NCBI GenBank assembly: GCA_902511425.1
Contig: CABXFE010000002.1
Location: forward strand, 1,943-65,942
Source: an uncultured SAR86 cluster bacterium
GTDB lineage: Bacteria; Pseudomonadota; Gammaproteobacteria; Magnimaribacterales; D2472
Reading direction: 5' to 3'
Length of the DNA stretch: 64,000 bases
Under the pieces are notes generated by a model, which did no database searches, was not told the DNA's origin, and saw nothing but the letters and a program-made list of their open reading frames with translations. The position numbers were made by a program, and so were the translations under genes. This document shows, piece after piece, positions 6,875 to 20,752 of the stretch. How positions within the stretch are numbered: position 1 is the stretch's first letter; every line of letters starts with the position of its first letter.

Positions 6875-7426
6875 ATGTTTTACTTAATACAAGGTCTTAC
6901 AATTTTTAGAATTTTTTCAGGGCCTGTTCTTTTGGTTTTGATAAGCATTTTTAATAGCTACAGCCTCGCACTTTTTATATTTTTTTTAGCAGCAATTTCA
7001 GATTATTTTGATGGCTACTTTGCTCGAAAATTTAATTTAGAATCCGAATTTGGATCTATTATCGATCCTATTGCAGATAAAATTTTAATTATTTTTATGA
7101 TTTTGGCTATTCAAATTAATACAAATAGCATCTATTTTGGGTTATTGGGAGGCTTTATTCTTGCAAGAGAGTTTTGGGTTGCTGCTCTGCGTGATCGAAA
7201 TTCTAGACAAGGTTTAAGTAGCTTGACGACAGTTACATTTATTGCAAAACTGAAAACAACTTTTCAATTACTGGCTTTACTTCTTTACCTTCTTTATTTC
7301 AAAACAAATAATAATTTAATTTTTATGATTGCGGATCTTACATTTTTTATTGCATTCTTGATGACTATCAAAAGTGGATTGGATTACACACTAAGATCGT
7401 TTAAGGCAAGTAATAATTCAACATAG
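6875..7426 (+). CDS. pgsA: CDP-diacylglycerol--glycerol-3-phosphate 3-phosphatidyltransferase
   Basis: CDP-alcohol phosphatidyltransferase motif DYFDGYFARKFNLESEFGSIIDPIADK, multiple TM segments, and uvrC-pgsA synteny. The start is immediately after the uvrC stop. Confidence 0.9.
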   Translation: MFYLIQGLTIFRIFSGPVLLVLISIFNSYSLALFIFFLAAISDYFDGYFARKFNLESEFGSIIDPIADKILIIFMILAIQINTNSIYFGLLGGFILAREFWVAALRDRNSRQGLSSLTTVTFIAKLKTTFQLLALLLYLLYFKTNNNLIFMIADLTFFIAFLMTIKSGLDYTLRSFKASNNST

Positions 7427-8095
7427 ATCTTTAATTCTCTTACTATAATAATCGTAGCATTGTTTAAGTAGGTCAATATCTGGTTCCTCATCTACATCCA
7501 CGCCTTGAAAACGATCAATTATATATCCTGTTTTATTTTCGAGGTCTTTGCTAGAGAACCATTCTTTTTTATATATATAAAATTGACCTGTGTTGTAATA
7601 ATTATCCTCTAGATCTTGAGATCTAATTAATTCTGCTCCAGGGTGATTTGAAATTAATATATTGTCATGCAACTTGAACGTCCATTCAATTGGTGACGGA
7701 AGTTTAGCAACACTAATCATCCTCAATGATTGAGATTTTTTGAACTGATTGATTGCATTATGGATTGTATCAGGATCAATGCAAATTGAATGAGGGTATA
7801 GATGCAATATGAAATCATATTCCATGAGATGCTCACGCTGATGCCAAGAAAGTAAATCAATCACAGTAGAAAAGTCATCTGAGAAATTAGAACCCCTTTC
7901 AAGAAATTTAGCCCCATTTATCTTGTTAAAGAAGTATTCATCATCTGTAGATATGAAAATAGTATCTGCAACCTGAGACCTTTGAATATTGTTAACTACT
8001 TTTTGCAGACAAAGTTGGTTATTAATTTTTAGTCTATTTTTATGCTTAATTCTTTTGCTATTTTTTCTTGCTGGAACAAATGCTGCTACTTTCAT
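7418..8095 (-). CDS. acylneuraminate (nonulosonate) cytidylyltransferase family protein
   Basis: The N-terminus VAAFVPARKNSKRIKHKN matches the NeuA/PseF-type ARxxSKRxxxKN signature. It is the last gene of a minus-strand neuB-GT2-neuA-like operon. Its 3' end overlaps the pgsA 3' end by 9 bp. Confidence 0.75.
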   Translation of the reverse strand: MKVAAFVPARKNSKRIKHKNRLKINNQLCLQKVVNNIQRSQVADTIFISTDDEYFFNKINGAKFLERGSNFSDDFSTVIDLLSWHQREHLMEYDFILHLYPHSICIDPDTIHNAINQFKKSQSLRMISVAKLPSPIEWTFKLHDNILISNHPGAELIRSQDLEDNYYNTGQFYIYKKEWFSSKDLENKTGYIIDRFQGVDVDEEPDIDLLKQCYDYYSKRIKDLC

Positions 8096-8727
8096 TTTAA
8101 TTTTCTCATTCTTAAGATATACATTAGCAAACTCATTACCAACATAAAGTTAACCTTGATATTATTTCCAAGTCTAGAACCTACTCTTGAGTTTAGTTTA
8201 ATTTCAAGATTTAGAATACTTTCAGGCTTGATATGAGATAAAACTAATAAATCAATACCAAAATCAATTAAACTTCTTTCATTAAAGTCCTCAACGTAAC
8301 CAAGCTTTAACCCACACATAAAATCAAAAATTCCATATTTTTTTTTGAAAAAAGCGTTAACAATTTTTTCACCAAGTCTTTTTGGATTAGTTCTAAACCC
8401 GCAGCACAGCCTATATTGATCTGAAAGTTTAATAATTTTATTTACTGATGTCGCATCAATTTCATTATCACCATCAACTATCAGAAATTGAGTGTATTCG
8501 TTATCTTTTAAAAATCTTAAACCAGCTTTAAGTGTTTTAGAGTAACCCGGTGAATTAATATCAATGACATTGCAGCTGCATTGTTTGGCTATTCTTTTTG
8601 TATTGTCAACAGAATTATTATTTAAAACAAATACATTTTCAGGTGCTATACCAGCGCTAAATAATCCCTCAAGAACTTTGTGAATATTCTCTTCTTCGTT
8701 CAATGCGGGAACAAGCACTCCTAACAT
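8092..8727 (-). CDS. small family-2 glycosyltransferase-like protein
   Basis: Motifs VLVPALNEEENI and LIVDGDNE (DxD), with a C-terminal hydrophobic tail. It has 4-nt and 7-nt overlaps with its neighbours. Confidence 0.55.
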   Translation of the reverse strand: MLGVLVPALNEEENIHKVLEGLFSAGIAPENVFVLNNNSVDNTKRIAKQCSCNVIDINSPGYSKTLKAGLRFLKDNEYTQFLIVDGDNEIDATSVNKIIKLSDQYRLCCGFRTNPKRLGEKIVNAFFKKKYGIFDFMCGLKLGYVEDFNERSLIDFGIDLLVLSHIKPESILNLEIKLNSRVGSRLGNNIKVNFMLVMSLLMYILRMRKLK

Positions 8728-9782
8728 ATATCATCTTTTAGAATGCTCTCACCGGCATGCTTATCGTTATTTAAGATCTTTCCAACTACTAAATCTTTTT
8801 CAAAAGGATGAAAGCTATTTTTTGGACATGGGCGCAAGAATTCAATATTATCCTCCTCAATTTTTTGACCCTTTGTGAGGCTTCTTTTGATTGTGATAGA
8901 TCGTCTTTGCACGATAAAAGCATTTTTTTCATTTTCCTCAACTTTCTTGACTCCATCTCCTAGTGTTTCAAACACTTCATTTCCCATATCAACCATTTGC
9001 CTCCAGGTGGTTGGATTTAGTGCAAACTTATGATCAGGACCTTCTCTGTCATTATCATCTGTAAAATGTTTTTCAATAACTCTTGAGCCAATAGCAATGG
9101 AGCCCAAAACTGATCCATGCCCTAAAGTGTGATCTGATAATCCAAGAACAATATTTGGAAATTTTTCTTTATATTTGTTTAATACATTAATATTTACAAA
9201 TTTATGTTTATTTTTTTCAAGAGTATAGTTAGTGTTGCATTGCATTAAGACCAACCTATCGTTTGGAATAATACTAACAGCCCTCATCACATCATCCATA
9301 GATGCTGCTCCAGTTGCTAATATAAGTGGCTTTGATTTTGAATCCATATATTTGATTAAATCAATCCAAGTTATGTCTCCTGAACCAATCTTATAAAAGT
9401 TTACATATTCATCCACCTCATCAATAGCTTGATAATCATATGGAGAAGTTGAGAATTCTATTTCGGCCTTTTGACACTCAAGATAAATTTCTTCTGTCCA
9501 TTCCCTCTTAAAGTGATATTGATCATAAATCTCAGAAACTGATTTTTTCCAAGATGACTGATGTGTTTTCAATGATTCTAACTTTTGAAACTCAACATCA
9601 TTCACTATTTTGTCGGCTAAAAAATGTTGAAATTTTGCACAATCTGCACCTGCTTCTTTAGCATGCCATACTAAATCTTTTGCACGCGAAAGATCCCCAT
9701 CATGATTTGCAGCAATATCGGCAATGAAATAGGGAGGGTGCTCAATGCCAACTGCTTTTCTTCCAAGCTTTAAATCACTCAT
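8721..9782 (-). CDS. N-acylneuraminate/pseudaminate/legionaminate synthase family protein (NeuB paralog 1)
   Basis: FIADIAANHDGDLSRAKDLVWHAKEAGADCAKFQ is the NeuB-family N-terminal signature. Also LGLSDHTLG, and a C-terminal SAF-like segment (FLRPCPKNSFHPFEKDLVVGKIL). Confidence 0.85.
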   Translation of the reverse strand: MSDLKLGRKAVGIEHPPYFIADIAANHDGDLSRAKDLVWHAKEAGADCAKFQHFLADKIVNDVEFQKLESLKTHQSSWKKSVSEIYDQYHFKREWTEEIYLECQKAEIEFSTSPYDYQAIDEVDEYVNFYKIGSGDITWIDLIKYMDSKSKPLILATGAASMDDVMRAVSIIPNDRLVLMQCNTNYTLEKNKHKFVNINVLNKYKEKFPNIVLGLSDHTLGHGSVLGSIAIGSRVIEKHFTDDNDREGPDHKFALNPTTWRQMVDMGNEVFETLGDGVKKVEENEKNAFIVQRRSITIKRSLTKGQKIEEDNIEFLRPCPKNSFHPFEKDLVVGKILNNDKHAGESILKDDIC

Positions 9783-9840
9783 ATATCAATCCCTCATTAT
9801 TATTTTCATACCATTCATTATTCTTTAACAACATTATAGT

Positions 9841-10725
9841 ATGATCAACTACAATTTTATTATGCTAACAAAAATATTATTGCTTGGATCCTCTGGAATG
9901 TTGGGATCATATATTTCAAGAAATCTAAAAATAGATGGCGTAGAACTTATTCTTGCATCACGAGAGTCTATTGATGACTTTGACTTTAACAAACCTGATA
10001 AGGTTATAACTTTTATCAAAAGTGTAAAACCGGCAATAATAATTAATGCAGTTGCCTGTATCTCCTTAGATTTTTGCGAGAATAACCCTGTATTATCCCA
10101 CCAAGTTAACTCCATTACACCTGGAGTTATCTCGCAATATTGTAAAAATAATAAAATTTACTTTATTCATATTTCTACAGATCACTTTTTCTTTGGCAAT
10201 AAGGATAAAAAACATTCTGAGAACTCAACAGTATCAATAGTCAATCAGTATGCAGCATCAAAATTTGAGGCTGAAAATAGAATACTTAAAAATAAAGAAG
10301 CATTAATTTTAAGGACTTCAATCATAGGAAGAACAAGCAAAAATAAATCTTTTCTTGACTGGGCAATAAATCAGATTGAATCTATGCAAAATATTAACCT
10401 ATTTGATGATTCATATTCCTCGTTTATGCATTGCAAACAATTTGTATCTCTTTTAAAGATTTTAATTTTGAAGAAAGCTTCGGGACTATATAATGTTGCT
10501 TCTTCTGACGTTTTTTCAAAAGCCGACTTTGTAATCAAACTTGCCTCTCTAATGAATATTAAAATTACTTATCAATTAACATCAGTTAATAACTTAAAAA
10601 TTAAACGAGCTAACTCATGCGGCCTAGATACAAAAAAACTTATTAATGAATATAAAATTGAATGTCCAAGTTTTGATGAGGTGGTAAACTGCTCCTTTAA
10701 TGAATTAAAGCAGAGCAAGGATTAA
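9841..10725 (+). CDS. RmlD-like NAD(P)-dependent sugar-nucleotide reductase/epimerase
   Basis: Rossmann motif ILLLGSSGMLGSYI and YAASKFEAE (YxxxK). The length and layout resemble dTDP-4-dehydrorhamnose reductase. The alternative start ATG 9862 (MLTKILLLG) is equally plausible. Confidence 0.65.
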   Translation: MINYNFIMLTKILLLGSSGMLGSYISRNLKIDGVELILASRESIDDFDFNKPDKVITFIKSVKPAIIINAVACISLDFCENNPVLSHQVNSITPGVISQYCKNNKIYFIHISTDHFFFGNKDKKHSENSTVSIVNQYAASKFEAENRILKNKEALILRTSIIGRTSKNKSFLDWAINQIESMQNINLFDDSYSSFMHCKQFVSLLKILILKKASGLYNVASSDVFSKADFVIKLASLMNIKITYQLTSVNNLKIKRANSCGLDTKKLINEYKIECPSFDEVVNCSFNELKQSKD

Positions 10726-10728
10726 AAA

Positions 10729-10890
10729 ATGTATTCATTTTTAAAAAGTATCCTAAGTTATTTAGGAAGCCGACTTCCTGTATTTGTTAAAAATCGCATT
10801 CTCCTTTTAAATGATGCATCCATTTCTACTTTTTTTAATACAGGCAAAAAGTCTTCAACCAATGAGCCCGAAACCTTTTTAAAAAAATGA
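10729..10890 (+). other. 53-codon ORF fragment, probably the 5' part of the downstream methyltransferase gene, separated by a 1-nt frameshift in a T5A7 tract
   Basis: ATG 10729 lies 3 nt after the upstream stop. This frame ends at TGA 10888-10890, directly after A7 (10881-10887). The downstream gene's frame is open from 10883. Confidence 0.45.
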
Positions 10891-10945
10891 CGGCTCACTG
10901 TTATATTTAGAAGATGGCTATCGTTGGTCAGTAAAAAAAGGTTGG

Positions 10946-11941
10946 ATGTTTTTTCCTGAGTTACTAGCCTTTCATAAGCTTTCACTAATGAATGTATTAA
11001 GAGATACAGACCTTAAATTTTTTCAAAGCTGTATTGGTAAAAAAACTATTGAGATTCATCCAGATGAAATAAATAAGCAATATAGAAAAGTTGCTTCCTC
11101 CTATTCCAAGCATCTGATCAGTTTAGAAGAAAATGATCCCATTTTAGTTATTCCTACAGATAATGAAAATAAAACACGTATAAATTCTTTCTATAGAAGA
11201 TATAAATCTACATTCGACATATTAAAAAATAATCTCCAACTCGATATTGTTAAAAACGATAAAATTCTTGAGATTGGATATGAAAGTGGCGGCCATTCTT
11301 TGTTTGCATTAGAAAAACTTGGCTTTCATGTTACCGGTATCGATAACGGTTACTCAGGACTTCGCTCAGTTTCATTGCTACCTGAGAAAATAAAAAAATC
11401 TATACAAAGCAATGCCCAGTTCGTCATTGGAGACATAACAAAAAAAACAAGCTTTAATTCCGAAAATTTTTCTGCTATCAATTCGATTGCAGTGCTTGAG
11501 CATATTTTGGATTTACCATCCGCCTTCCAAGAAATGTATCGAATTTTAAAGCCTGGTGGAATTATCATTCATAGTTATGATCCATATTTTCACCCCGCAG
11601 GCGGTCATGGATTGGGAGTTCTTGATATGCCATGGGGACACCTTCAAGTTAGTCCAGATGAATATGAACGATACATTAAGGAGTTTAGACCTTTTGAAAT
11701 TGATCAAGCTATTAACTGGTATAAAAATGGAGTACATAAAAAATATCCTAAGCGCTTAATGATGCAGTTAGTATTAGATTCTGGATTCAAGATACTGTTC
11801 TGGAATACTCGTAAAATAAACAAGCATCAAAGGTCAAGAATTGGCAATGGCTTAATGAGGAATGTGTTTAAAAATTATCCTGAGATTTCATTTGATGATC
11901 TCTTAGCCTGCGAACATACATTTATAGCTCAAAAAATTTAG
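10946..11941 (+). CDS. class I SAM-dependent methyltransferase (possibly 5'-truncated by a frameshift)
   Basis: Motif I ILEIGYESGGHSLFALEKLGFHVTGIDN, plus later LKPGGIII. The frame is open upstream to 10883. Confidence 0.75.
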   Translation: MFFPELLAFHKLSLMNVLRDTDLKFFQSCIGKKTIEIHPDEINKQYRKVASSYSKHLISLEENDPILVIPTDNENKTRINSFYRRYKSTFDILKNNLQLDIVKNDKILEIGYESGGHSLFALEKLGFHVTGIDNGYSGLRSVSLLPEKIKKSIQSNAQFVIGDITKKTSFNSENFSAINSIAVLEHILDLPSAFQEMYRILKPGGIIIHSYDPYFHPAGGHGLGVLDMPWGHLQVSPDEYERYIKEFRPFEIDQAINWYKNGVHKKYPKRLMMQLVLDSGFKILFWNTRKINKHQRSRIGNGLMRNVFKNYPEISFDDLLACEHTFIAQKI

Positions 11942-12027
11942 CTTCATTCCTAAATACTCAAGTTAGGATAGAGTCTCCAGCATGATAAGATTTCATTTTC
12001 AATCAAGGATATAATATTGAGTTTAAT

Positions 12028-12987
12028 ATGAGTAAACCAAAGTTATTATTTTCAGCTCCATTTTCTTTTCTCAAAGATGATATTAAAAAATTTAGGGAAT
12101 TTTTTGAAATAGATTTCATTGAAATTTGGAAACGAGATGAACTTTTACAATTGCACGCTGATTATGAATTTTGGATACCAAATCCAGGACAAAATTTTGT
12201 GATTGACAATTCTATATTAGAAAAGATGACGCATTTAAAAATTATATCGACTCCTTCAACAGGAACCAATCATATAAACATTCTTGATTGCAATTCAAGT
12301 AACGTTCATGTAGTTGGCCTGCTTGATCAAAAGATAAAGCTTGAATCTATATCCGCCAGCGCAGAATTCACATTTTTAAAAGTACTTTCAAGCCTAAGAA
12401 ATATTCGATTAGCATGGTCGGAAGTTGAATTAAATCGATGGAGAGACAATGAGGATAAAATGAGAGGACATGAAATTAATGAGAGGAGTTTTGGCCTCAT
12501 TGGAATGGGTAGAATTGGGAATAAATTATGTAGATATTTAGAGGCTTTTGAAGCAAGAAAAATTTTTTTTTATGATCCATATGTCAATTGCGACAAATTA
12601 AATATTTCAGAAAAAAAAGATTTAGACTTTATATTTCAAAATTCAGATGTAGTTGTTATATGTTGCGCTTTGAACGAAGAAACAAACTCTATGATCTCTA
12701 AAAAACACCTAGATCTTTTGCCCAAAGATGCTTGTATGATTAATACATCTAGAGGAGAGATTATAAATGAGCAGGAATTAGTTGAGTTTTTAGGGGAAAG
12801 ACCTGACATAACATTTTGTGCTGATGTGATAACTGGAGAGGTAAATGATTTGCAAATGCATAACCCATTAATTCCCCTTCATTTAGAAAAAAAAATTAAT
12901 TTGACGCCTCACATTGCAGGTGCGACATATGGATCCCAAACAAAAGCAGCTGTATTTGCATTTGAGGCTTTGATTGATCATGTTTAA
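12028..12987 (+). CDS. D-isomer-specific 2-hydroxyacid dehydrogenase family protein
   Basis: NAD-binding motif FGLIGMGRIGNKLCRYL, followed by INTSRGEII and TPHIAGAT, typical of the glycerate/phosphoglycerate dehydrogenase family. Confidence 0.75.
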   Translation: MSKPKLLFSAPFSFLKDDIKKFREFFEIDFIEIWKRDELLQLHADYEFWIPNPGQNFVIDNSILEKMTHLKIISTPSTGTNHINILDCNSSNVHVVGLLDQKIKLESISASAEFTFLKVLSSLRNIRLAWSEVELNRWRDNEDKMRGHEINERSFGLIGMGRIGNKLCRYLEAFEARKIFFYDPYVNCDKLNISEKKDLDFIFQNSDVVVICCALNEETNSMISKKHLDLLPKDACMINTSRGEIINEQELVEFLGERPDITFCADVITGEVNDLQMHNPLIPLHLEKKINLTPHIAGATYGSQTKAAVFAFEALIDHV

Positions 12988-13984: not shown

Positions 13985-14047
13985 CCCAACTATTTTCTAA
14001 TCATTATCGTATAATGCTATTTTTCTAAGTAACCTTGGAATATAAGT

Positions 14048-14121
14048 GGCTGGATGGCAGAGTGGTTATGCAGCGGCCTGCAAAGCCGTTTACGCCGGTT
14101 CGATTCCGGCTTCAGCCTCCA
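14048..14121 (+). tRNA. tRNA-Cys (anticodon GCA)
   Basis: Folded by hand. Acceptor GGCTGGA/TTCAGCC, 3-bp D stem, anticodon stem GCGGC/GCCGT with loop CTGCAAA, T arm GCCGG-TTCGATT-CCGGC, discriminator T and an encoded CCA. It closely resembles E. coli tRNA-Cys as I recall it. Confidence 0.93.
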
Positions 14122-14128
14122 AGCTTTT

Positions 14129-14938
14129 ATGAAATCTAAAAAAATGAAAGATATTACAAATGAAGAGCACAAGGATAATTCTGCCCTTTACGGAATAATA
14201 ATTGTTGCTCGATTAAGTTCAAGCAGACTGCCTCAAAAAAATATTATGCCTCTTGTTGGCAAACCAATGATTGAGCATCTCATAGATAGAGTGGGGCAAT
14301 CAAAAAAATCTCCAAAGATTATTATTGCAACAAGCGATGAAAAATCTGATGATCAATTAGAAGAGCTAGCAAATAAAAAAGGGATTCTTTGTTATAGAGG
14401 TTCTCTAAATAATGTTATGCAGCGTATCGTAAGTGCGGCACAAAAATTTAATGTAAAAAACATAATAGAGATTTTAGGCGATAATCCATTAGTGCATGGT
14501 AATTTAATAGATGATGTAATAGATGTCTTTGAGAGAGAAAGATGTGATTACGCAGCTACAGCAACAAAAGAATATGATCAAATACCTAAATCTGTAGCGA
14601 AATTTTCAGTTGGGGTTAGAGTTCAAATATACCCAACAAGAATTGGAGAAAAGTTTCACAACTTCCCTGAATATATCAACAATGAGGAGAAGCATCCGTG
14701 CTCGTTTATATTTGATAATTCTGATAAGTTTTCTGTCCATTTTTTAGAGGCTGATAACAATTGGAAATTTTTAAATAAACCTGATTTGAACTTTGCAGTT
14801 AACTATCCTAAAAACTTCAAGTTTGTTAAAAATATATTTGAGGCCCTGTATACACAAAACCCATATTTTTCTATATCTGATATGTTTAGATATCTTGAAA
14901 CTAATCAAGAGCTATATGAATTACTGGGGCCTGAATAA
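14129..14938 (+). CDS. SpsF/NeuA-type cytidylyltransferase family protein
   Basis: IIIVARLSSSRLPQKNIMPLVGKPMIEH matches the ARxxSxRLPxK signature of SpsF-like cytidylyltransferases. The track ORF start 14054 lies inside the tRNA, so I moved the start to ATG 14129 (ATG 14144 is also possible). Confidence 0.7.
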   Translation: MKSKKMKDITNEEHKDNSALYGIIIVARLSSSRLPQKNIMPLVGKPMIEHLIDRVGQSKKSPKIIIATSDEKSDDQLEELANKKGILCYRGSLNNVMQRIVSAAQKFNVKNIIEILGDNPLVHGNLIDDVIDVFERERCDYAATATKEYDQIPKSVAKFSVGVRVQIYPTRIGEKFHNFPEYINNEEKHPCSFIFDNSDKFSVHFLEADNNWKFLNKPDLNFAVNYPKNFKFVKNIFEALYTQNPYFSISDMFRYLETNQELYELLGPE

Positions 14939-14943
14939 GCTTT

Positions 14944-15897
14944 ATGTTTAGGGCTGGAATTATTGGATGCGGAGGAATTGCTGGTGGTTTTGATGTAAAT
15001 TTGCCCAGTGTAGGAGCCCTATCTCATGCTGGAGGTTATCATTTATCTCAATGCGTAGAACTTATCGCGATTTGTGATTCAGATCTAAAAGTTGCAAAAG
15101 AATTTTCAGAGAAATGGGGGGTTAAAAATCACTATTCAGATTATCAAAAAATGATTGCTGAATTGAATTTGGATATTGTTAGTATTTGTTTGCCAACGGA
15201 GCTTCATTTTTCTTGTTTTAAGCATGTTGTGAAGTCAGACGTAAAAGCAATTTTTTGTGAGAAACCTCTAGCAAAAAACCTTGAAGAAGCCTTAGAGATG
15301 GAAAAAATTTCTATAAATATCCCGGTTAGCATAAATTATTTCAGGAGATGGAATTTAAAAATTTCAGATCTAAAGGTTGATATTGATGCAAAGAAATTTG
15401 GAGATCATCTTCATACTACAGCAAGATATACTAAAGGATTGCTCGGCAATGGTAGCCATGTAATGCATTTAATAGAGTGGTTGTTTGGAGAGCCAACCAA
15501 TATTTCAGGAGTAGATGTTTGCGGAGATTCACCTTCTCATGAAATTGGCGTGAATTTTACTTATAATTATGACATTAATTCAAAGGTTGACTTTAGACAT
15601 ATTCCAACTTTAAATTATATTTTTATAGATATTGATATTCTATTTTCAGAGGCTAGGATTATTTTGTCTCAGAGAGGGCAAAGGCTTTCAATAGAAAAGA
15701 TTGTTGATGATCCAGATTACCCATCTTTTAAAATTTTAGACAATGCATGTTTCTCTGAAACTTCTTGGCGTGATTGCTCAACAAGAGCCATCACTGAGCT
15801 TGCAGATTGTATCAATACTGGAAATAAAACAAGTTGTAGCATTGAAGACTCAATTCAGATTATGAAAAGATACGATCAAATTATTTCATATATATAG
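14944..15897 (+). CDS. Gfo/Idh/MocA family oxidoreductase
   Basis: N-terminal Rossmann motif AGIIGCGGIAGG and EKPLA motif (FCEKPLAKN). Confidence 0.75.
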   Translation: MFRAGIIGCGGIAGGFDVNLPSVGALSHAGGYHLSQCVELIAICDSDLKVAKEFSEKWGVKNHYSDYQKMIAELNLDIVSICLPTELHFSCFKHVVKSDVKAIFCEKPLAKNLEEALEMEKISINIPVSINYFRRWNLKISDLKVDIDAKKFGDHLHTTARYTKGLLGNGSHVMHLIEWLFGEPTNISGVDVCGDSPSHEIGVNFTYNYDINSKVDFRHIPTLNYIFIDIDILFSEARIILSQRGQRLSIEKIVDDPDYPSFKILDNACFSETSWRDCSTRAITELADCINTGNKTSCSIEDSIQIMKRYDQIISYI

Positions 15898-15906
15898 GAA
15901 AGGTTA

Positions 15907-17289
15907 ATGATAAAAAAAACAAAATCTAAACTTGCAATTCATGGAGGATCTCCAGTTAGAAGCTCTCCTTATCCCATTCATTCAACAATGCTTGATGATG
16001 CTGAAGAGAAGCAATTGATTGAGACTATTAGAAAAGGTCATTTATCTGGATTCTCTGCAAGACCTGGAGATAGATTTCTTGGCGGAGAAAAAGTAATCGA
16101 GCTTGAAGAGCATTTTGCTAAAAAATTCAACGTCAAGTTTGCTGTAAGCACAAACTCAGCAACCTCAAGCCTTCATAGTGCAATTTCAGCAATTGGAATT
16201 AGAGAAGGTGATGAAGTAATTACCTCTCCATTTACAATGTCAGCTACAGGTAGTTCAATAGTAATGCAAAATGCTGTTCCGGTGTTCGCAGACATTGAAG
16301 ATAGAACTTTTGGTCTTGATCCAGCATCTGTAGAGAAGTTAATTTCTAAAAAGACCAAAGCAATTCTTACTGTAAATATACTGGGACATCCATCACGTTT
16401 AAAAGAATTAAAGGAGATTGCTGACAAATATAATTTATTTCTAATCGAAGATAATGCCCAATCACCTATGGCTGAAAATCATGGCAAGTTAGCAGGAACA
16501 GTAGGTGACATTGGAATATTAAGTTTAAATTATCATAAATGCATCCAAACTGGAGAAGGTGGCATCGCCTTAACAAATGATCCTAATCTAGCTGAAAGAC
16601 TTCGTTTAATAAGAAATCACGGAGAGGTAGTTGTAGGTAAAATTAATAAAGGTCACATGACCAATCAACTCGGATGGAATTACAGATTATCTGAATTGCA
16701 AGCAGCTGTTGGAATTCCTCAAATTAAAAAATTAGACTATTTAACAAAAATTAGATCAGATTTAGCGTCCATGTTAATTAAAGAACTTGAGCCTTTTAAT
16801 TTTCTAACACCTCCGGTAATTGAGCCCGAAAGCTCTCATGTATTTTATTTATTTGGAATGAGATTTCATGAACATGATGCAGGATTCAGCAGAAAAGAAT
16901 TTGTTAATGCCATGAAAGCTGAAGGTATAGCGTTAAATGAAGGATATGTTTTGCCGATGTATTTAGAGCCAATGTATCAAAATCCTCATCTTACACCTCA
17001 ATTAAATGTTGCATTGTCTTCAAATTTTTTAAAAGATGAATTACCAGAAAATTTTACAAATAATAGAAGTAAACATGATCACAAGAAATGTCCATATGAA
17101 TCACACATAAAAGAAAATTACTCTAATAAATTTTACTCTCCAGGCATATGCCCAATTGCAGAAAAAATGCATGAAAGTGAAATATGCATCACAGATATTT
17201 GCAAATACCCTAACTCCGAAAAAGAGATACTGGAATTTGTTGAGGCAGTTAAAAAAGTTTCTGATGGATTGCTCTCGTTGAATGCATAA
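15907..17289 (+). CDS. DegT/DnrJ/EryC1/StrS family PLP-dependent sugar aminotransferase
   Basis: Motifs DEVITSPFTMSAT and LIEDNAQS. The PLP-lysine region is LSLNYHKCIQTGEGG. It has an insertion of about 60 aa before the conserved C-terminal CPIAEK segment. Confidence 0.82.
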   Translation: MIKKTKSKLAIHGGSPVRSSPYPIHSTMLDDAEEKQLIETIRKGHLSGFSARPGDRFLGGEKVIELEEHFAKKFNVKFAVSTNSATSSLHSAISAIGIREGDEVITSPFTMSATGSSIVMQNAVPVFADIEDRTFGLDPASVEKLISKKTKAILTVNILGHPSRLKELKEIADKYNLFLIEDNAQSPMAENHGKLAGTVGDIGILSLNYHKCIQTGEGGIALTNDPNLAERLRLIRNHGEVVVGKINKGHMTNQLGWNYRLSELQAAVGIPQIKKLDYLTKIRSDLASMLIKELEPFNFLTPPVIEPESSHVFYLFGMRFHEHDAGFSRKEFVNAMKAEGIALNEGYVLPMYLEPMYQNPHLTPQLNVALSSNFLKDELPENFTNNRSKHDHKKCPYESHIKENYSNKFYSPGICPIAEKMHESEICITDICKYPNSEKEILEFVEAVKKVSDGLLSLNA

Positions 17290-18331
17290 CTTATCTTTAC
17301 GACCCCTAGTCTATTTTCAAGATATTGGAGGAACAAGATTTTTACTCCCCGTTATCAATTCATTGTTAAAACTTTTGAAAAAATTTGAAGCAATTTTTAT
17401 ATTCCACGAGAAATCATCAACATTCTCTCAAGCATTATCAGAGAGCTTCAACAATAATTTTGCATATACTTCAATTAAAAATTTTTCAATCAAGGAGTGG
17501 AAATCTATATTGACTGAAGAAAATATTGGTGTGGTTGTTTGTACCATGAGTTCAAAATACATTGATATGACAAACTGCAATCTAATTGCTGCATGCAATG
17601 AGCTTAATATTCAAAGTATTGGTTTCTTTGATCACTGGAAGGGTTTTGATCGTTTAAAAGACGCTGATAACAGGTTCACATATATGACATCTATAGTTGG
17701 TGTGATAGATAATTACGTAAAAGATGGACTTATCAATGAAGGAATAAGCTCTGAAAGAGTTGAGGTAGTTGGGCATCCATTGCTGGAGACAATCTCACCA
17801 AAAAATTATAATAACGATCCATGTGAGGCAATCATAATTTCTCAACCAAATATTTTGGATAAAAGTTTTAATGGCATCTTTAATTTACCATTGTTTGAAA
17901 ATGAGTCTTTCATTGATAGGCTCGCTTCAACCTTTTCATCTAAATTTAGTAATTTAAAACTTCTATATAAATCTCATCCAAAAGAAAAAAAAGCGGCCAT
18001 AGTCAAAGCGGACTTATTTAAAGAATCTTGGGATGAAATAAATAAATCAAAAAAAATATTTCTTGGCTTTGATTCAATGTTGTTGTTTGAATCTTATCTT
18101 TCTAATCATGAGGTAATAATTTTAAATTTTCCTGAATTTAAGAAATATTCAGATAAAAGTATTCCATATGATTTTGGGTATTCCGTTAAAGATTTTAATG
18201 AGTTAGAAAAACGTTTATTTGCTATTGTCAGTGGGGAGTATAATCAGGCTAATACTTTTTCATACAGAGAAGTCATTTGTAACTCTATTGATCGGTCAAA
18301 AAATTTAATTGAAAATACGCTGTTAAAATAA
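17282..18331 (+). CDS. hypothetical protein, possible GT-B-fold enzyme (candidate nonulosonate transferase or UDP-sugar 2-epimerase/hydrolase-like)
   Basis: No confident family match by eye. VEVVGHPLLE and KSHPKE (HP at 17975-17980) recall the HP motif of sialyl/Kdo transferases and epimerase_2-type proteins. 8-nt overlap with the aminotransferase gene. Confidence 0.3.
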   Translation: MHNLSLRPLVYFQDIGGTRFLLPVINSLLKLLKKFEAIFIFHEKSSTFSQALSESFNNNFAYTSIKNFSIKEWKSILTEENIGVVVCTMSSKYIDMTNCNLIAACNELNIQSIGFFDHWKGFDRLKDADNRFTYMTSIVGVIDNYVKDGLINEGISSERVEVVGHPLLETISPKNYNNDPCEAIIISQPNILDKSFNGIFNLPLFENESFIDRLASTFSSKFSNLKLLYKSHPKEKKAAIVKADLFKESWDEINKSKKIFLGFDSMLLFESYLSNHEVIILNFPEFKKYSDKSIPYDFGYSVKDFNELEKRLFAIVSGEYNQANTFSYREVICNSIDRSKNLIENTLLK

Positions 18332-18362
18332 TAGAACAGGCATATAAAAAAGGGGCAAGTTT

Positions 18363-19727
18363 TTGAAAATTTCTGTATACATGGCATCTTATAATTATGC
18401 TGACTTTATTGAAGAAGCCATCAATAGTGTTATCCATCAAACATTAGATGACTGGGAACTCATTGTTATTAATGATGGCTCGACTGATGATACTGAAGAG
18501 GTATTGAAGCAATATGAGTCAAATCAAAAGATTCGTATTATTCATCAACAAAACCAGGGTCTCAATATTACGAATAATATAGCTCTAAGGCTTGCTAGGG
18601 GTGAATATATTATGAGACTAGATGCTGATGATTATTTAGATGAAAATGCATTGTCAGTTTTATCAGATAGCTTAGACCGAAATAAAGCATATGATTTGGT
18701 CTTTCCTGATTATTATGAAGTTGATGAAAATGGAAAAGTATTAGACTTAATTCGAAGAGATAAGCTAGATAATGATGTTGAAATTTTGGATTTGCCTGCA
18801 CATGGTGCATGCACAATGTTCAGAACAAATACATTAAAAAGATTAGGTGGATATATTGAAGATTTTCAATGTCAGGATGGTTATGAGCTTTGGCTTCGTT
18901 TTATTCAAAAATACAAGCCTAAAAATATTAACATACCATTATTTTATTATCGTCAGCACTCTAAGTCTCTGACAAAAAATAAAAAGAAAATTTTAGACAC
19001 GAGAAGAGAAATTAAAAAAAGATTTGTAAAAAAAGAACTTAATGGAAAATTACCAAAAGTTGTTGCCATTATCCCTGCCTCACGACAAACAAATTATATT
19101 AAAAATGATGCACTGATAGATATGTGTGGCAAACCACTCATTTGGTACACAATATCTGAAGCTTTAAAATGTAAATCTTTTGAAGAAATTATCATAAGTT
19201 CTGGGGATGATGACGTTTTAGAGTTTTCAAAAGATTTTAAAAATTTAACTCTTCATAAAAGATCTTTAGAAATTGACACCAATTCTAGTAGGGGTGAGTT
19301 AGGTCTCGATGCCCTTCAATCTCTTTCAAAGATAGACCAAGCAAGTATTGATTATGTTTGTTTTTTAAACGTAAATTCTCCCTTGAGAACAGTTGAGCAT
19401 ATAGATTGGGCAATTAACACGCTTATGATTTTTAAAGTAGATAATGTGATATCTGTAGATGAAGAATTAAATAATTTGTTTCTTCATGGGGAGTCTGGTC
19501 TTTCATCTGTTACTAATTCTGATTCAATAATTAAGCTAGAAAGAGATACGTTGTATCGAGAAAACGGGGCAATAACTTTGACCCATCTAGATAATTTAAC
19601 AAAAGAGGGCTCAAGAAAGAAAACTGGTCATATAACACTTTTGCCACAAGAAAGTGTTCGGATTAATAGCGATTTTGAGTTCTGGTTAGCGGCTAAGCTT
19701 TTGGAGGAAAAAGCTTCGAGCATTTAG
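18363..19727 (+). CDS. fusion protein: N-terminal GT2 glycosyltransferase plus C-terminal cytidylyltransferase-like domain
   Basis: TTG start preceded by AAGGGG. The GT2 part shows ISVYMASYNYADFIEEAINSVIHQT, INDGSTDDT and RLDADDY. The C-terminal half shows VVAIIPAS, LNVNSPLRT, RENGAI and SDFEFWLAAKLL, like NeuA/KdsB-type enzymes. Confidence 0.7.
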   Translation: MKISVYMASYNYADFIEEAINSVIHQTLDDWELIVINDGSTDDTEEVLKQYESNQKIRIIHQQNQGLNITNNIALRLARGEYIMRLDADDYLDENALSVLSDSLDRNKAYDLVFPDYYEVDENGKVLDLIRRDKLDNDVEILDLPAHGACTMFRTNTLKRLGGYIEDFQCQDGYELWLRFIQKYKPKNINIPLFYYRQHSKSLTKNKKKILDTRREIKKRFVKKELNGKLPKVVAIIPASRQTNYIKNDALIDMCGKPLIWYTISEALKCKSFEEIIISSGDDDVLEFSKDFKNLTLHKRSLEIDTNSSRGELGLDALQSLSKIDQASIDYVCFLNVNSPLRTVEHIDWAINTLMIFKVDNVISVDEELNNLFLHGESGLSSVTNSDSIIKLERDTLYRENGAITLTHLDNLTKEGSRKKTGHITLLPQESVRINSDFEFWLAAKLLEEKASSI

Positions 19728-19810
19728 CTCCAAAGAATTTTATCCATTACAATCTTTCATGTCGAATAAAACTGTATAATACCTATTATTAAAACCCTGA
19801 AATAATAATT

Positions 19811-20713: not shown

Positions 20714-20752
20714 TAAAATATCTGCATCAGCTAGAACAGATAGGTAAACATT

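What the first reader, a model, noticed from the sequence alone, without database searches (positions are those of the whole stretch)
7418..19727. Two NeuB-type synthases and three cytidylyltransferase domains suggest a double or non-canonical nonulosonic-acid pathway
Seen in the sequence: two paralogous NeuB/PseI/LegI-type synthases (8721-9782 minus strand, 12980-13984 plus strand). Both have the N-terminal I-A-[DE]-I-x-x-N-H-x-G...KFQ signature and SAF-like C-termini. There are three cytidylyltransferase-like domains: 7418-8095, 14129-14938 and the C-terminal half of 18363-19727. One DegT aminotransferase and one Gfo/Idh/MocA oxidoreductase are nearby, and a PseB-like 4,6-dehydratase lies further right at 20753-21751. 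The canonical Neu5Ac, pseudaminic and legionaminic pathways each need one synthase and one CMP-synthetase. I could not find a PseH/LegH-type N-acetyltransferase or an obvious NeuC/PseG hydrolase. The left module instead contains an RmlD-like reductase, a SAM methyltransferase and a D-2-hydroxyacid dehydrogenase, and none of these belong to the textbook pathways. Inference: the island makes either two different nonulosonic acids or one with an unusual substituent, for example a methylated hydroxyacyl/glyceroyl group of the kind reported on Campylobacter pseudaminic acid.
Basis: partly seen in the sequence, partly recalled or inferred. Interest (0 to 1): 0.7.

Follow-up and report, generated by a model that had tools for sequence, protein, structure and literature searches.

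The report
Two separate sialic-acid-like sugar pathways
A surface-polysaccharide locus of an uncultured SAR86 ocean bacterium carries two independent gene modules for sialic-acid-like sugars. Each is built around a synthase from a lineage that has never been characterised, so the sugars made are probably not the textbook ones.

Summary
There are two intact NeuB+SAF synthases (8721-9782 minus strand; 12980-13984 plus strand), 30% identical to each other. There are three CTP_transf_3 domains, one DegT, one Gfo/Idh/MocA and a bona fide PseB.

Left module: NeuB1, a small GT2 and CT1, plus a divergently transcribed RmlD-like reductase. It is a 3.7 kb indel that is absent from a related SAR86 contig. 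It belongs to a widespread cassette, usually next to a PseB-like gene, in which an RmlD-like gene sits directly upstream of the synthase in 60 of 68 loci.

Right module: 2-HADH, NeuB2, tRNA-Cys, CT2, GFO, DegT, an orphan 349-aa protein and a GT2::NeuA-like fusion. It stands alone in other SAR86 genomes. It is a SAR86 variant of a widespread CT-NeuB-GT2::CT cassette, so two of the three cytidylyltransferase domains belong to this one module.

The apparently missing NeuC is probably the orphan protein, whose predicted fold and profile relatives match UDP-GlcNAc 2-epimerases.

The methyltransferase is dispensable. Both synthase clades score below NCBI's curated NeuB and PseI cut-offs. The products are unknown.

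The parts
7418..8095 (-). CT1: NeuA/PseF-type cytidylyltransferase of the left module. It is the last gene of the NeuB1-GT2s-CT1 operon, with overlapping stop and start codons.
   Evidence: Pfam CTP_transf_3 3e-15. Best NCBIfam hit is PseF at 99.4 bits, below the 205.7 cut-off. The P-loop PARKNSKRIKHKN is intact. A cytidylyltransferase of this type or the SpsF type lies within 8 kb in 39 of 54 fully covered NeuB1-type loci.
8092..8727 (-). Small GT2-like protein (211 aa, hydrophobic C-terminus). Its role is unknown. It is a candidate for releasing or handling the UDP-sugar in the left module.
   Evidence: Pfam Glycos_transf_2 6.6e-11. No PDB sequence hit. A homologous small GT2 lies directly downstream of the NeuB1-family gene in 19-20 of 80 loci, alternating with a GNAT in 35 of 80. 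The same pair occurs on a Maritalea plasmid.
8721..9782 (-). NeuB1: PEP-condensing nonulosonate synthase of a widespread uncharacterised clade (F1).
   Evidence: Pfam NeuB 1e-64 and SAF 3e-7. TIGR03569 245 bits (cut-off 400) and PseI 213 bits (cut-off 340). 592 relatives in genome contigs, best 55% identity, across many phyla. Catalytic residues kept; clade signature E25D, E134D, N184T, F112Y. Separate from NmNeuB and CjPseI in an NJ tree.
9841..10725 (+). RmlD-like NAD(P)H reductase, the conserved partner of NeuB1. Inferred role: 4-ketoreductase acting on the PseB product.
   Evidence: Pfam RmlD_sub_bind 3e-37. TIGR01214 134 bits, below the 224 cut-off. GxxGxxG and YxxxK motifs present. A homologue lies directly upstream of the NeuB1-family gene in 60 of 68 loci. 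The true rmlD is elsewhere in the window (36944-37813, 308 bits).
10946..11941 (+). SAM-dependent methyltransferase. It is a variable accessory gene that forms its own indel.
   Evidence: Pfam Methyltransf_11 4e-13. Window 10689-11920 is replaced by about 105 bp in the otherwise 90-91% identical L107. Present at 71% identity in L082 and 41% in L112.
12028..12987 (+). D-2-hydroxyacid dehydrogenase (PGDH/glyoxylate-reductase-like), translationally coupled to NeuB2. Its substrate is unknown.
   Evidence: Pfam 2-Hacid_dh_C 3.8e-37. No NCBIfam equivalog is reached. GxGxxG and the Arg/Glu/His catalytic residues align with PGDH 1wwk. It sits directly upstream of, or overlapping, NeuB2 in L082, L083, L084, L085, L086, L107, L110, L111, L112 and L113. 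It is also next to NeuB2-clade genes in Actinomycetota, Thiohalocapsa and Multivoradales MAGs.
12980..13984 (+). NeuB2: PEP-condensing ulosonate synthase of a second clade (F2). The HADH-coupled subclade is confined to SAR86-like marine genomes.
   Evidence: Pfam NeuB 2.5e-46 and SAF 1e-4. TIGR03569 218 bits (cut-off 400) and PseI 168 bits (cut-off 340). Only one of 185,579 species genomes holds a relative above 50% identity, and it is a SAR86. Catalytic residues kept; clade signature E134D, F112W, N184A, F288E.
14048..14121 (+). tRNA-Cys(GCA) embedded between NeuB2 and CT2. It probably marks the ancestral pgsA|tRNA junction into which HADH-NeuB2, the methyltransferase and the left module were inserted.
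   Evidence: ARAGORN. Rfam RF00005 63.9 bits. The same position is found in L082, L107, L110 and L113. In L083 tRNA-Cys and tRNA-Leu directly follow pgsA.
14129..14938 (+). CT2: SpsF/KdsB-like cytidylyltransferase of the right module.
   Evidence: Pfam CTP_transf_3 4e-29. Best PDB match is 6oew 'Cytidylyltransferase' at 84.5 bits, followed by KdsB structures. P-loop ARLSSSRLPQK is intact. A homologue lies next to NeuB2-clade genes in 55 of 83 loci by tblastn and 65 of 83 by clustering.
14944..15897 (+). Gfo/Idh/MocA oxidoreductase. Inferred to oxidise a sugar hydroxyl to the keto group that DegT then aminates.
   Evidence: Pfam GFO_IDH_MocA 4e-19. Weak NCBIfam hits to inositol 2-dehydrogenase and UDP-GlcNAc 3-dehydrogenase. 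It always occurs in the block CT-GFO-DegT-epimerase-like-GT2::CT (L082, L107, L108, L110, L113). A natural fusion of GFO with an epimerase-like domain exists (P0272).
15907..17289 (+). DegT-family PLP aminotransferase (460 aa).
   Evidence: Pfam 3e-81. PseC 217 bits (cut-off 423) and LegC-family 186 bits (cut-off 420). Best PDB matches are scyllo-inositol transaminase, perosamine synthetase and the Kdo8N transaminase 5k8b. PseC (119 bits) and WbpE (121 bits) score lower.
17282..18331 (+). Orphan 349-aa protein: a cryptic GT-B fold member of the UDP-GlcNAc 2-epimerase superfamily. It is the candidate NeuC-like enzyme that releases the hexosamine substrate for NeuB2.
   Evidence: No Pfam, NCBIfam or PDB sequence hit. 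Only 6 clusters among 5.8 billion proteins. AlphaFold2 pLDDT 78.9, pTM 0.76. Foldseek top hits are UDP-GlcNAc 2-epimerases, including NeuC and WbpI-type enzymes (E 6e-10, TM 0.55-0.65). A profile search finds 1034 relatives. Of 50 sampled, 18 hit Pfam Epimerase_2 and 6 hit polysialyltransferase.
18363..19727 (+). GT2::CT3 fusion: an N-terminal inverting GT-A glycosyltransferase and a C-terminal NeuA-like domain with a divergent P-loop.
   Evidence: Pfam Glycos_transf_2 1e-31 and CTP_transf_3 2e-9. PDB: the N-terminus matches the chondroitin synthase GT2 domain and 6p61; the C-terminus matches CMP-Neu5Ac synthetases 6ifd, 9t4z and 1eyr. The P-loop reads PASRQTNYIKN. Homologues at 33-47% identity lie next to NeuB2-clade genes in 69 of 83 loci.
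20753..21751 (+). PseB: inverting UDP-GlcNAc 4,6-dehydratase. Inferred entry enzyme for the left module.
   Evidence: TIGR03589 546.8 bits, above the 407.75 cut-off. A PseB-like gene lies within 8 kb of NeuB1-family genes in 45 of 54 fully covered loci. It is adjacent to the cassette in SAR86 AG-325-E16 (L094: pgsA-PseB-CT-RmlD-like-NeuB1-GT2s).

Best explanation
The region holds two independent biosynthetic modules for CMP-activated sialic-acid-like (ulosonic) sugars. Both were inserted at the head of the hypervariable surface-polysaccharide locus of a SAR86 gammaproteobacterium.

Left module (inferred steps):
1. PseB converts UDP-GlcNAc to the 4-keto-6-deoxy-L-sugar.
2. The RmlD-like enzyme reduces C4 instead of a PseC/PseH amination and acetylation.
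3. The sugar is released from UDP. The enzyme is not identified; the small GT2 is the only candidate.
4. NeuB1 condenses it with PEP to give a 9-deoxy, probably 7-hydroxy, 5-acetamido nonulosonic acid.
5. CT1 makes the CMP-sugar.

Right module (inferred steps):
1. The GFO oxidoreductase and DegT convert a hydroxyl of a nucleotide hexosamine into an amine without 6-deoxygenation.
2. The cryptic 2-epimerase-like protein releases the free sugar.
3. NeuB2 condenses it with PEP.
4. CT2 and/or the NeuA-like domain of the GT2::CT3 fusion activate the product with CTP.
5. The GT2 domain acts in the next transfer step.
6. The coupled 2-HADH performs an extra redox step. It either supplies a D-2-hydroxyacyl substituent (glycerate or lactate type) or acts on the 2-keto-acid function. 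The optional methyltransferase decorates the product.

Shown here: gene identities, intact active sites, the independence and conservation of each module, and that both synthase clades lie outside the curated NeuB and PseI families.

Inferred: every substrate and product, and the order of steps.
For: Independence of the modules:
- L082 lacks window 7210-10875 (CT1, GT2s, NeuB1, RmlD-like) but keeps the methyltransferase, HADH and everything through TviB.
- L110 and L113 carry only pgsA-HADH-NeuB2-tRNA-Cys-CT-GFO-DegT-epimerase-like-GT2::CT.
- L094 carries only pgsA-PseB-CT-RmlD-like-NeuB1-GT2s.
- L107 carries both modules but no methyltransferase.

Left cassette conservation:
- 592 relatives were found. 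An RmlD-like gene is directly upstream in 60 of 68 loci.
- A PseB-like gene is present in 45 of 54 fully covered loci.
- 24 of 54 loci have PseB and RmlD-like genes but no aminotransferase within 8 kb.

Right cassette conservation:
- A GT2::CT homologue is present in 69 of 83 loci and a CT2 homologue in 55-65 of 83.
- Fusions link the parts: NeuB::CTP_transf_3 (P0050) and GFO::epimerase-like (P0272), the latter in a locus that also holds NeuB, a cytidylyltransferase and DegT.
- A polysialyltransferase-family gene follows NeuB2 in L086. MptE/Maf-like genes occur in the wider cassette.

The orphan protein as an epimerase-like enzyme.

Both synthases are intact and not recent duplicates: 30% identity; residue check (residue list from PMC8208679); tree.

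Non-canonical status; PGAP gives an F1 member only a generic family name.
Against: - No step has biochemical support.
- The enzyme that removes UDP in the left module is not identified.
- 18 of 54 NeuB1-type loci carry both an RmlD-like gene and an aminotransferase. The reductase is therefore not simply a replacement for PseC.
- L082 keeps PseB at 97% identity without the left module, so PseB may serve another sugar.
- Known GFO-type UDP-sugar dehydrogenases act at C3. An amine there would block the usual pyranose ring of a nonulosonate, so the site of amination is unclear.
- Type B NeuB2 modules (L083, L084, L086, L111) and most of the wider NeuB2 clade lack GFO, DegT and the epimerase-like gene. 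NeuB2-type enzymes can therefore draw on another aldose.
- The role of the HADH is a guess.
- The P-loop of CT3 is divergent, so the domain may not be catalytic.
- The tree has only two characterised anchors. No LegI, Kdn-9-P synthase or Aci/Fus synthase was included.
Confidence: 0.6

Rival explanations
1. One nonulosonic acid with an unusual acyl substituent. NeuB1, PseB and CT1 make the sugar. HADH, with or without NeuB2 and the methyltransferase, makes a (methylated) 2-hydroxyacyl or glyceroyl-type group that is attached to it, as on Campylobacter Pse5(2,3-di-O-methylglyceroyl)7Ac.
For: - In related SAR86 loci a methyltransferase and a DUF4910/DUF2172 protein sit directly upstream of CT-GT2::CT-HADH-NeuB2. 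This is the same family as Cj1295, which is required for the dimethylglyceroyl-Pse of C. jejuni 11168 (PMC3068675).
- Those loci always carry a second NulO cassette as well.
- The HADH is of the glycerate/glyoxylate-reductase/PGDH type.
- No N-acetyltransferase accompanies DegT in the window.
Against: - The right module occurs with no other NeuB within 10 kb in L110 and L113.
- NeuB2 keeps all sugar- and PEP-contact residues, including R314.
- NeuB2 has its own cytidylyltransferases, a NeuB::CT fusion relative and a polysialyltransferase-like neighbour.
- The window has no DUF4910 gene and no acyl-activating enzyme.
- The methyltransferase is absent from L107.
Confidence: 0.15
2. A scattered but essentially canonical pseudaminic acid pathway. 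PseB, DegT acting as PseC, the 349-aa GT-B protein acting as PseG, one NeuB acting as PseI and one cytidylyltransferase acting as PseF. The acetyltransferase would be encoded elsewhere, and the second synthase would serve a Neu- or Kdn-like sugar.
For: - PseB is genuine.
- The best NCBIfam hit of DegT is PseC, and the best hit of CT1 is PseF.
- PseG is also a GT-B enzyme.
Against: - PseC, PseI and PseF scores are about half their curated cut-offs.
- DegT matches inosose, perosamine and Kdo8N transaminases better than PseC in the PDB.
- DegT travels with GFO and the epimerase-like gene in loci where no PseB is seen.
- The top structural matches of the 349-aa protein are 2-epimerases.
- No PseH or PseG model matches anything in the window.
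Confidence: 0.1
3. The GFO-DegT-epimerase-like trio makes a separate nucleotide sugar for the repeat unit, for example a UDP-ManNAc3N(A)-type residue as with WbpB/WbpE/WbpI together with the TviB-like dehydrogenase. It does not feed NeuB2, which would use a common aldose such as ManNAc, mannose or a 6-phosphate.
For: - The trio mirrors WbpB/WbpE/WbpI. WbpI-type epimerases are among the fold hits.
- A TviB/WbpA-like dehydrogenase is in the locus.
- Type B modules and most of the wider NeuB2 clade lack the trio.
Against: - The trio is always inserted between CT2 and GT2::CT3, in four versions whose epimerase-like protein is 33-92% identical to the window's.
- Close relatives of the epimerase-like protein are extremely rare, and all those examined lie in this context.
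- The GFO::epimerase-like fusion again sits with NeuB, a cytidylyltransferase and DegT.
- No WbpD-type acetyltransferase is present.
Confidence: 0.12
4. Recent duplication with one decaying synthase copy; a single functional pathway.
For: None beyond the presence of two paralogues.
Against: - The two are 30% identical.
- They fall in different deep clades.
- All catalytic residues are kept in both.
- Each has its own conserved partners and occurs alone in other genomes.
Confidence: 0.02

Closest known systems
Pseudaminic acid pathway (PseB, PseC, PseH, PseG, PseI, PseF)
   Same: The left module starts from a genuine inverting UDP-GlcNAc 4,6-dehydratase (PseB). It uses a NeuB-family PEP condensation and a PseF/NeuA-type CMP activation. 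The same cassette occurs in flagellin-glycosylation islands and O-antigen loci.
   Different: The cassette has no PseC, PseH or PseG. An RmlD-like reductase is the invariant partner of the synthase. The synthase and the cytidylyltransferase score far below the PseI and PseF cut-offs. The predicted product has a 7-hydroxyl rather than a 7-acylamino group.
Bacterial Neu5Ac pathway (NeuC hydrolysing 2-epimerase, NeuB, NeuA)
   Same: The right module has the same three-part logic. A GT-B protein of 2-epimerase type releases the sugar, a NeuB-type synthase with a SAF domain and conserved R314 condenses it, and NeuA/KdsB-type cytidylyltransferases activate the product.
   Different: The epimerase-like protein cannot be recognised by sequence models. 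A GFO and DegT oxidation-transamination pair precedes it. A 2-HADH is coupled to the synthase. There are two cytidylyltransferase domains, one fused to a GT2. NeuB2 scores 218 bits against a cut-off of 400.
UDP-L-RhaNAc / L-QuiNAc route of Vibrio cholerae O37 (WbvB, WbvR, WbvD) and the FnlA/B/C route (from my own knowledge)
   Same: A 4-keto-6-deoxy-L-HexNAc nucleotide is reduced at C4 by an RmlD-family or SDR reductase.
   Different: In those pathways the product stays a UDP-sugar and is transferred as a 6-deoxyhexosamine. Here the reductase is locked to a NeuB-type synthase, which implies extension to a nine-carbon acid.
WbpB/WbpE/WbpI (UDP-ManNAc3NAcA), GnnA/GnnB, and Kdo8N synthesis (KdnB/KdnA)
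   Same: A dehydrogenase and a DegT transaminase convert a sugar hydroxyl into an amine. In the Wbp system a 2-epimerase follows. KdnA (PDB 5k8b) is among the best matches of the window's DegT.
   Different: No WbpD-type acetyltransferase is present. The block is embedded in a NeuB/cytidylyltransferase cassette. KdnB is an iron-dependent alcohol dehydrogenase, not a GFO enzyme. The position oxidised here is unknown.
Cj1295-dependent 2,3-di-O-methylglyceroyl modification of Pse in C. jejuni 11168 (PMC3068675)
   Same: Sister SAR86 loci combine a Cj1295-family (DUF4910/DUF2172) protein and a methyltransferase with the HADH-NeuB2 module. A glycerate-type dehydrogenase could supply the acyl group.
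   Different: This window has no DUF4910 gene. Its methyltransferase is unrelated to those of the sister loci (no tblastn match) and is dispensable. No gene set for the glyceroyl donor is known in Campylobacter for comparison.

Membership tests
Pseudaminic acid pathway | PseB, inverting UDP-GlcNAc 4,6-dehydratase (TIGR03589) | tested here: met
   20753-21751 scores 546.8 bits against a cut-off of 407.75.
Pseudaminic acid pathway | PseC aminotransferase (TIGR03588) | tested here: not met
   The only DegT (15907-17289) scores 217.3 bits against a cut-off of 423.5. PDB PseC 2fn6 ranks below inosose, perosamine and Kdo8N transaminases.
Pseudaminic acid pathway | PseH N-acetyltransferase and PseG UDP-sugar hydrolase | tested here: not met
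   No GNAT, hexapeptide or PseG/Glyco_tran_28 match was found in any ORF of at least 90 aa in 7.4-29.3 kb. The only GT-B candidate resembles 2-epimerases.
Pseudaminic acid pathway | PseI synthase (TIGR03586) and PseF cytidylyltransferase (TIGR03584) | tested here: not met
   PseI model: NeuB1 213 bits and NeuB2 168.5 bits, cut-off 340.25. PseF model: CT1 99.4, CT2 33.4 and CT3 49.3 bits, cut-off 205.7. Ten further members of the two clades also fall below the cut-off.
Neu5Ac pathway (NeuC/NeuB/NeuA) | NeuB equivalog (TIGR03569) | tested here: not met
   NeuB1 scores 245.2 bits and NeuB2 217.7 bits, cut-off 399.65. Other clade members score 228-281 bits.
Neu5Ac pathway (NeuC/NeuB/NeuA) | Hydrolysing UDP-GlcNAc 2-epimerase (Pfam Epimerase_2) | tested here: inconclusive
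   17282-18331 has no Pfam hit. Its predicted fold best matches 2-epimerases, including NeuC. Of 50 profile relatives, 18 hit Epimerase_2. Hydrolytic activity cannot be tested here.
Legionaminic acid pathway | LegB dehydratase (TIGR04180) and LegC aminotransferase (TIGR04181) | tested here: not met
   LegB model: 62.8 and 132.4 bits, cut-off 475. LegC-family model: 185.6 bits, cut-off 420.
Legionaminic acid pathway | LegI synthase clade | not tested
   No characterised LegI sequence or LegI-specific model was available. The JGI label 'N,N'-diacetyllegionaminate synthase' on NeuB2 relatives is an automatic name.
NeuB superfamily (PF03102 + SAF), PEP-dependent ulosonate synthases | NeuB TIM-barrel and SAF domain, with the metal (H215, H236), PEP and sugar-contact residues (K53, Q55, K129, S132, Y186, S213, E234, D247, R314) | tested here: met
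   Pfam hits. All listed residues are conserved in both proteins and in both clades (residue list from PMC8208679).
dTDP-rhamnose pathway RmlD | RmlD equivalog (TIGR01214), encoded with rmlABC | tested here: not met
   9841-10725 scores 134 bits against a cut-off of 224. The real rmlA-rmlC-rmlB-rmlD set is at 34428-37813.
WbpB/WbpE/WbpD/WbpI-type diacetamido-uronic acid pathway | GFO 3-dehydrogenase, DegT, N-acetyltransferase and non-hydrolysing 2-epimerase | tested here: inconclusive
   GFO, DegT and an epimerase-like protein are present. No acetyltransferase was found. WbpE ranks low among the PDB matches of DegT. The trio is always embedded in a NeuB/cytidylyltransferase cassette.

The most novel reading that the evidence does not exclude
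SAR86, one of the most abundant uncultured bacteria of the surface ocean, makes two nonulosonic acids of kinds not yet described biochemically.

(a) A 7-hydroxy-9-deoxy, mono-amino acid made by PseB, an RmlD-type 4-reductase and a dedicated NeuB clade. This route would also explain the trideoxy nonulosonic acids reported from Fusobacterium, and it is widespread across phyla.

(b) An amino-ulosonic acid made without any 4,6-dehydratase. It would use a GFO oxidase, a DegT transaminase and a cryptic 2-epimerase, with a coupled 2-hydroxyacid dehydrogenase step that has no counterpart in any known sialic-acid pathway.
Probability: 0.25. Interest if true: 0.75.

Novelty: new variant of a known kind. 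Interest (0 to 1): 0.6.

Why it matters
Nonulosonic acids decorate bacterial surfaces and flagella. They shape recognition by phages, grazers and immune systems.

Current annotation sorts every NeuB homologue into Neu, Leg or Pse. This locus shows two large synthase clades that fit none of these. One has hundreds of members across many phyla. The other has a widespread CT-NeuB-GT2::CT cassette with a SAR86-specific branch. Each clade has a conserved but unexplained partner enzyme: an RmlD-like reductase for one and a 2-hydroxyacid dehydrogenase for the other.

The analysis gives concrete, testable enzyme sets for new sugar chemistry. It identifies a cryptic NeuC-like enzyme family that sequence models miss. 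It also shows how a hypervariable surface-glycan locus in an abundant, uncultured marine lineage is assembled from mobile cassettes around a tRNA gene.

Tried and rejected
- A single-sequence scan of species genomes with NeuB2 found nothing close. It needed a homologue search and then an alignment-based scan.
- Literature searches found no paper that describes either cassette. They covered NeuB with 2-hydroxyacid or phosphoglycerate dehydrogenase, trideoxy nonulosonic acid biosynthesis, fusaminic acid, and SAR86 sialic acid. No biosynthetic genes for fusaminic acid were found.
- PDB sequence searches for the 349-aa protein and the small GT2 gave nothing.
- The promoter and terminator scan was at chance level in this AT-rich DNA.
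- I looked for a rule linking GNAT versus small GT2, presence of an aminotransferase, and cytidylyltransferase type in NeuB1 cassettes. There was no clean correlation.
- Rejected: the 14054 start for CT2, because it overlaps the tRNA.
- Rejected: recent duplication or decay of one synthase.
- Rejected: the RmlD-like gene as the rhamnose enzyme.
- Rejected: homology between the window's methyltransferase and those of type B loci or of the wider cassette.
- Rejected: homology between the no-Pfam 341-349-aa proteins of L083, L084 and L111 and either orphan protein of the window.
- Considered: HADH as a reductase of a cyclic imine formed from a 6-amino nonulosonate. Set aside because HADH is also coupled to NeuB2 in loci that lack GFO and DegT.

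Full report
**Context.** The window begins with pheS', pheT, two HU/IHF-type genes, pyrF, pgi, uvrC and pgsA. A roughly 36 kb surface-polysaccharide locus follows. It holds Wzz, PseB, a TviC/TviB-like pair, an ABC exporter, glycosyltransferases, AsnB, EpsG, rmlACBD, ugd, Wza-like, YjbH and YjbF. GC content is about 33%. UvrC is 77-83% identical to SAR86 single-cell and metagenome genomes. In those genomes the stretch after uvrC-pgsA differs from genome to genome. The finding therefore lies at the head of a hypervariable glycan locus of a SAR86 bacterium.

**Observation.**
- Two NeuB+SAF proteins.
- Three CTP_transf_3 domains, the third fused behind a GT2 domain.
- One DegT and one Gfo/Idh/MocA protein.
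- An RmlD-like SDR, a SAM methyltransferase and a 2-hydroxyacid dehydrogenase.
- A PseB that passes NCBI's curated cut-off (546.8 bits against 407.75).

Two details needed adjusting. NeuB2 starts at 12980, like its 334-aa homologues.

The two synthases share 30% identity. They are 25-30% identical to N. meningitidis NeuB and C. jejuni PseI. Both keep K53, Q55, K129, S132, Y186, S213, H215, E234, H236, D247 and R314 of the meningococcal enzyme (residue list from PMC8208679). Neither is a decaying copy.

**Neither synthase is canonical.** On NCBI's equivalog models, NeuB1 scores 245 bits (NeuB, cut-off 400) and 213 bits (PseI, cut-off 340). NeuB2 scores 218 and 168 bits. Five further members of each clade give the same picture. 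PGAP names a 52%-identical NeuB1 relative on a Maritalea plasmid only 'N-acetylneuraminate synthase family protein'. Genes that PGAP annotates as pseI on plasmids are only 32-35% identical to NeuB1. In a neighbour-joining tree the two proteins fall in separate deep clades, F1 and F2, with NmNeuB and CjPseI outside both. That tree has only two characterised anchors, which is a limitation. DegT, all three cytidylyltransferase domains and the RmlD-like protein also miss every equivalog cut-off.

**Two modules, shown by natural variants.**
- L107, a metagenome contig, is 90-91% identical over the whole region. It has the same genes except that window 10689-11920, the methyltransferase, is replaced by about 105 bp.
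- L082 aligns at 79% identity over the housekeeping genes. It lacks window 7210-10875 (CT1, small GT2, NeuB1, RmlD-like) but keeps the methyltransferase, HADH, NeuB2, tRNA-Cys, CT2, GFO, DegT, the 349-aa ORF, GT2::CT3, Wzz and PseB.
- L110 and the SAR86 genome L113 carry only pgsA-HADH-NeuB2-tRNA-Cys-CT-GFO-DegT-(313-aa homologue)-GT2::CT.
- SAR86 AG-325-E16 (L094) carries only pgsA-PseB-CT-RmlD-like-NeuB1-small GT2.

The left unit, the methyltransferase and the right unit are therefore three independent insertions.

**Left module.** NeuB1 has 592 detected relatives in species genomes. The best is only 55% identical, and they span Bacillota, Bacteroidota, Alpha-, Beta- and Gammaproteobacteria, Acidobacteriota, Verrucomicrobiota and candidate phyla. 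I clustered the neighbouring ORFs of 80 loci, with these results:
- An RmlD-like gene lies directly upstream of the synthase in 60 of 68 loci.
- A GNAT (35 loci) or a small GT2 (19-20 loci) lies directly downstream.
- A PseB-like dehydratase is present in 45 of 54 fully covered loci.
- A cytidylyltransferase of NeuA or SpsF type is present in 39 of 54.
- A DegT or class-III aminotransferase is present in only about a third.
- 24 of 54 loci have PseB and RmlD-like genes with no aminotransferase within 8 kb.
- Several loci sit beside flagellin and fliS.

The RmlD-like protein has its nucleotide-binding and YxxxK motifs. It is not the rhamnose enzyme, which is encoded at 36944-37813. The simplest reading is that the PseB product is reduced at C4 rather than aminated, then released and condensed with PEP. 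That would give a 9-deoxy, 7-hydroxy, 5-acetamido nonulosonic acid, which CT1 activates. This is inference. The UDP-releasing enzyme is not identified. 18 of 54 loci combine the reductase with an aminotransferase. L082 keeps PseB without the module.

**Right module.** Close NeuB2 relatives are almost all metagenomic. Among 185,579 species genomes only one, a SAR86, exceeds 50% identity. The 2-HADH has intact GxGxxG and Arg/Glu/His residues. It is immediately upstream of, or overlapping, NeuB2 in every member of this subclade that I examined. It is also adjacent to more distant NeuB2-clade genes in Actinomycetota, Thiohalocapsa and Multivoradales MAGs.

Two architectures exist:
- Type A, as in the window: HADH-NeuB2-tRNA-CT-GFO-DegT-orphan-GT2::CT.
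- Type B: (MT-DUF4910)-CT-GT2::CT-HADH-NeuB2, seen in L083, L084, L111 and L086. In L086 a polysialyltransferase-family gene follows.

In the wider F2 clade (32-40% identity; Bacteroidota, Pelagibacteraceae, Planctomycetota and others) the conserved cassette is: hexapeptide acetyltransferase, SpsF-like cytidylyltransferase, NeuB, then an acetyltransferase or methyltransferase, then the GT2::NeuA-like fusion, often followed by an MptE/Maf-like gene. A GT2::CT homologue occurs in 69 of 83 loci and a CT2 homologue in 55-65 of 83.

CT2 has a canonical KdsB-type P-loop. The CT3 domain resembles CMP-Neu5Ac synthetases (PDB 6ifd, 9t4z, 1eyr), but its P-loop is divergent. A NeuB2-like::CTP_transf_3 fusion (P0050) supports CMP activation of the product.

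**The 'missing' NeuC.** The 349-aa ORF at 17282-18331 has no Pfam, NCBIfam or PDB sequence match. It has only six relatives in a word-indexed search of 5.8 billion proteins, and all those examined lie in the same gene context. An AlphaFold2 model (pLDDT 78.9, pTM 0.76) is a GT-B fold. Its best PDB matches are UDP-GlcNAc 2-epimerases, including NeuC and WbpI-type enzymes (E down to 6e-10, TM 0.55-0.65).

A profile search of 1.84 billion representatives found 1034 relatives. Of 50 sampled, 18 hit Pfam Epimerase_2, 6 hit the polysialyltransferase family and 5 hit TagF-like. One relative, P0272, is a natural fusion. Its N-terminal half is 29% identical to the window's GFO, and its C-terminal half is related to the orphan protein. 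Its locus again holds NeuB, a cytidylyltransferase and DegT.

The DegT matches inosose, perosamine and Kdo8N transaminases better than PseC or WbpE. I therefore read GFO, DegT and the orphan protein as a unit. It would turn a hydroxyl of a nucleotide hexosamine into an amine and then release the sugar for NeuB2. The position aminated, and whether the epimerase-like protein hydrolyses, cannot be decided here. Because type B modules lack this trio, NeuB2-type enzymes can also use another aldose.

**HADH and the methyltransferase.** No published system couples a 2-hydroxyacid dehydrogenase to a NeuB-type synthase. There are two candidate roles:
1. Supply of a D-2-hydroxyacyl group (glycerate, lactate or glycolate type) for N-acylation.
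2. A redox step on the 2-keto-acid function of the NeuB2 product or of a precursor.

The first is favoured slightly. Type B loci place a methyltransferase and a DUF4910/DUF2172 protein beside the module, and that is the family of Cj1295, which is required for the 2,3-di-O-methylglyceroyl-Pse of C. jejuni 11168 (PMC3068675). However, this window has no DUF4910 gene and no acyl-activating enzyme, and its methyltransferase is dispensable (L107).

**Verdict.** Two NulO synthases in one genome or island are already known, for example in Campylobacter, Leptospira and Moritella (PMC7371886). The doubling itself is therefore not new. What is new is that both synthases belong to uncharacterised clades with conserved, unexplained partner enzymes, and that the right-hand cassette uses a dehydratase-free route to an amino sugar. 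I rate it a new variant of a known kind, with moderate to high interest.

Noticed in passing
window 14048-14121; also L082 10984-11057, L107 6767-6840, L110 5045-5118, L113 11006-11079, L083 3349-3542: A tRNA-Cys(GCA) gene sits inside the sugar operon between NeuB2 and CT2, in every type A locus. In L083, tRNA-Cys and tRNA-Leu directly follow pgsA. The pgsA|tRNA-Cys junction therefore looks ancestral. Window 7418-13984 looks like a stack of insertions into that slot: HADH-NeuB2 first, then the methyltransferase, then the left module.
   Followed up: partly
window 15870-23870 versus L082 12905-20918: Identity to L082 jumps from 78-79% (housekeeping genes and MT through GFO) to 93% exactly at the GFO/DegT border. 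This indicates recent recombination of the DegT-to-TviB segment between two SAR86 lineages whose pgsA proteins are only 51% identical.
   Followed up: partly
L083 15796-20116, L084 12320-16652, L108 12449-17962, L111 13668-19306: SAR86-like loci carry a third type of nonulosonate cassette. Its order is NeuB (353-374 aa, 45-49% identical to NeuB1), a PseB-like SDR (37-41% identical to the window's PseB), a 241-aa protein with no Pfam match, a short-chain dehydrogenase, a cytidylyltransferase and a LIC12162-family protein.
   Followed up: no
window 24076-26998; L107 16798-19720; L112 8022-9116: A 355-aa protein with no Pfam or NCBIfam match (25931-26998) follows the MsbA/HepA-like ABC exporter. 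It has a 31-33% identical homologue directly upstream of HADH-NeuB2 in L112. It may be a transferase for the NeuB2 product.
   Followed up: no
L193 (Logan SRR14876844 contig), 27-13950: This locus holds the GFO::epimerase-like fusion together with NeuB, WbqC, a radical-SAM/SPASM protein, four methyltransferases, DegT, a PIG-L deacetylase and a CTP_transf_3::LIC12162 fusion. It appears to encode a heavily tailored nonulosonate pathway.
   Followed up: no
window 20992-21441 (minus strand) and 25233-25526 (minus strand): ORFs of 149 and 97 aa lie antisense inside PseB and the ABC transporter gene. They are most likely spurious.
   Followed up: no
window 43860-45074: The polysaccharide locus ends after yjbF at about 43.8 kb. 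A tRNA-Pro(GGG) lies at 44998-45074, so the island is bracketed by tRNA genes.
   Followed up: no
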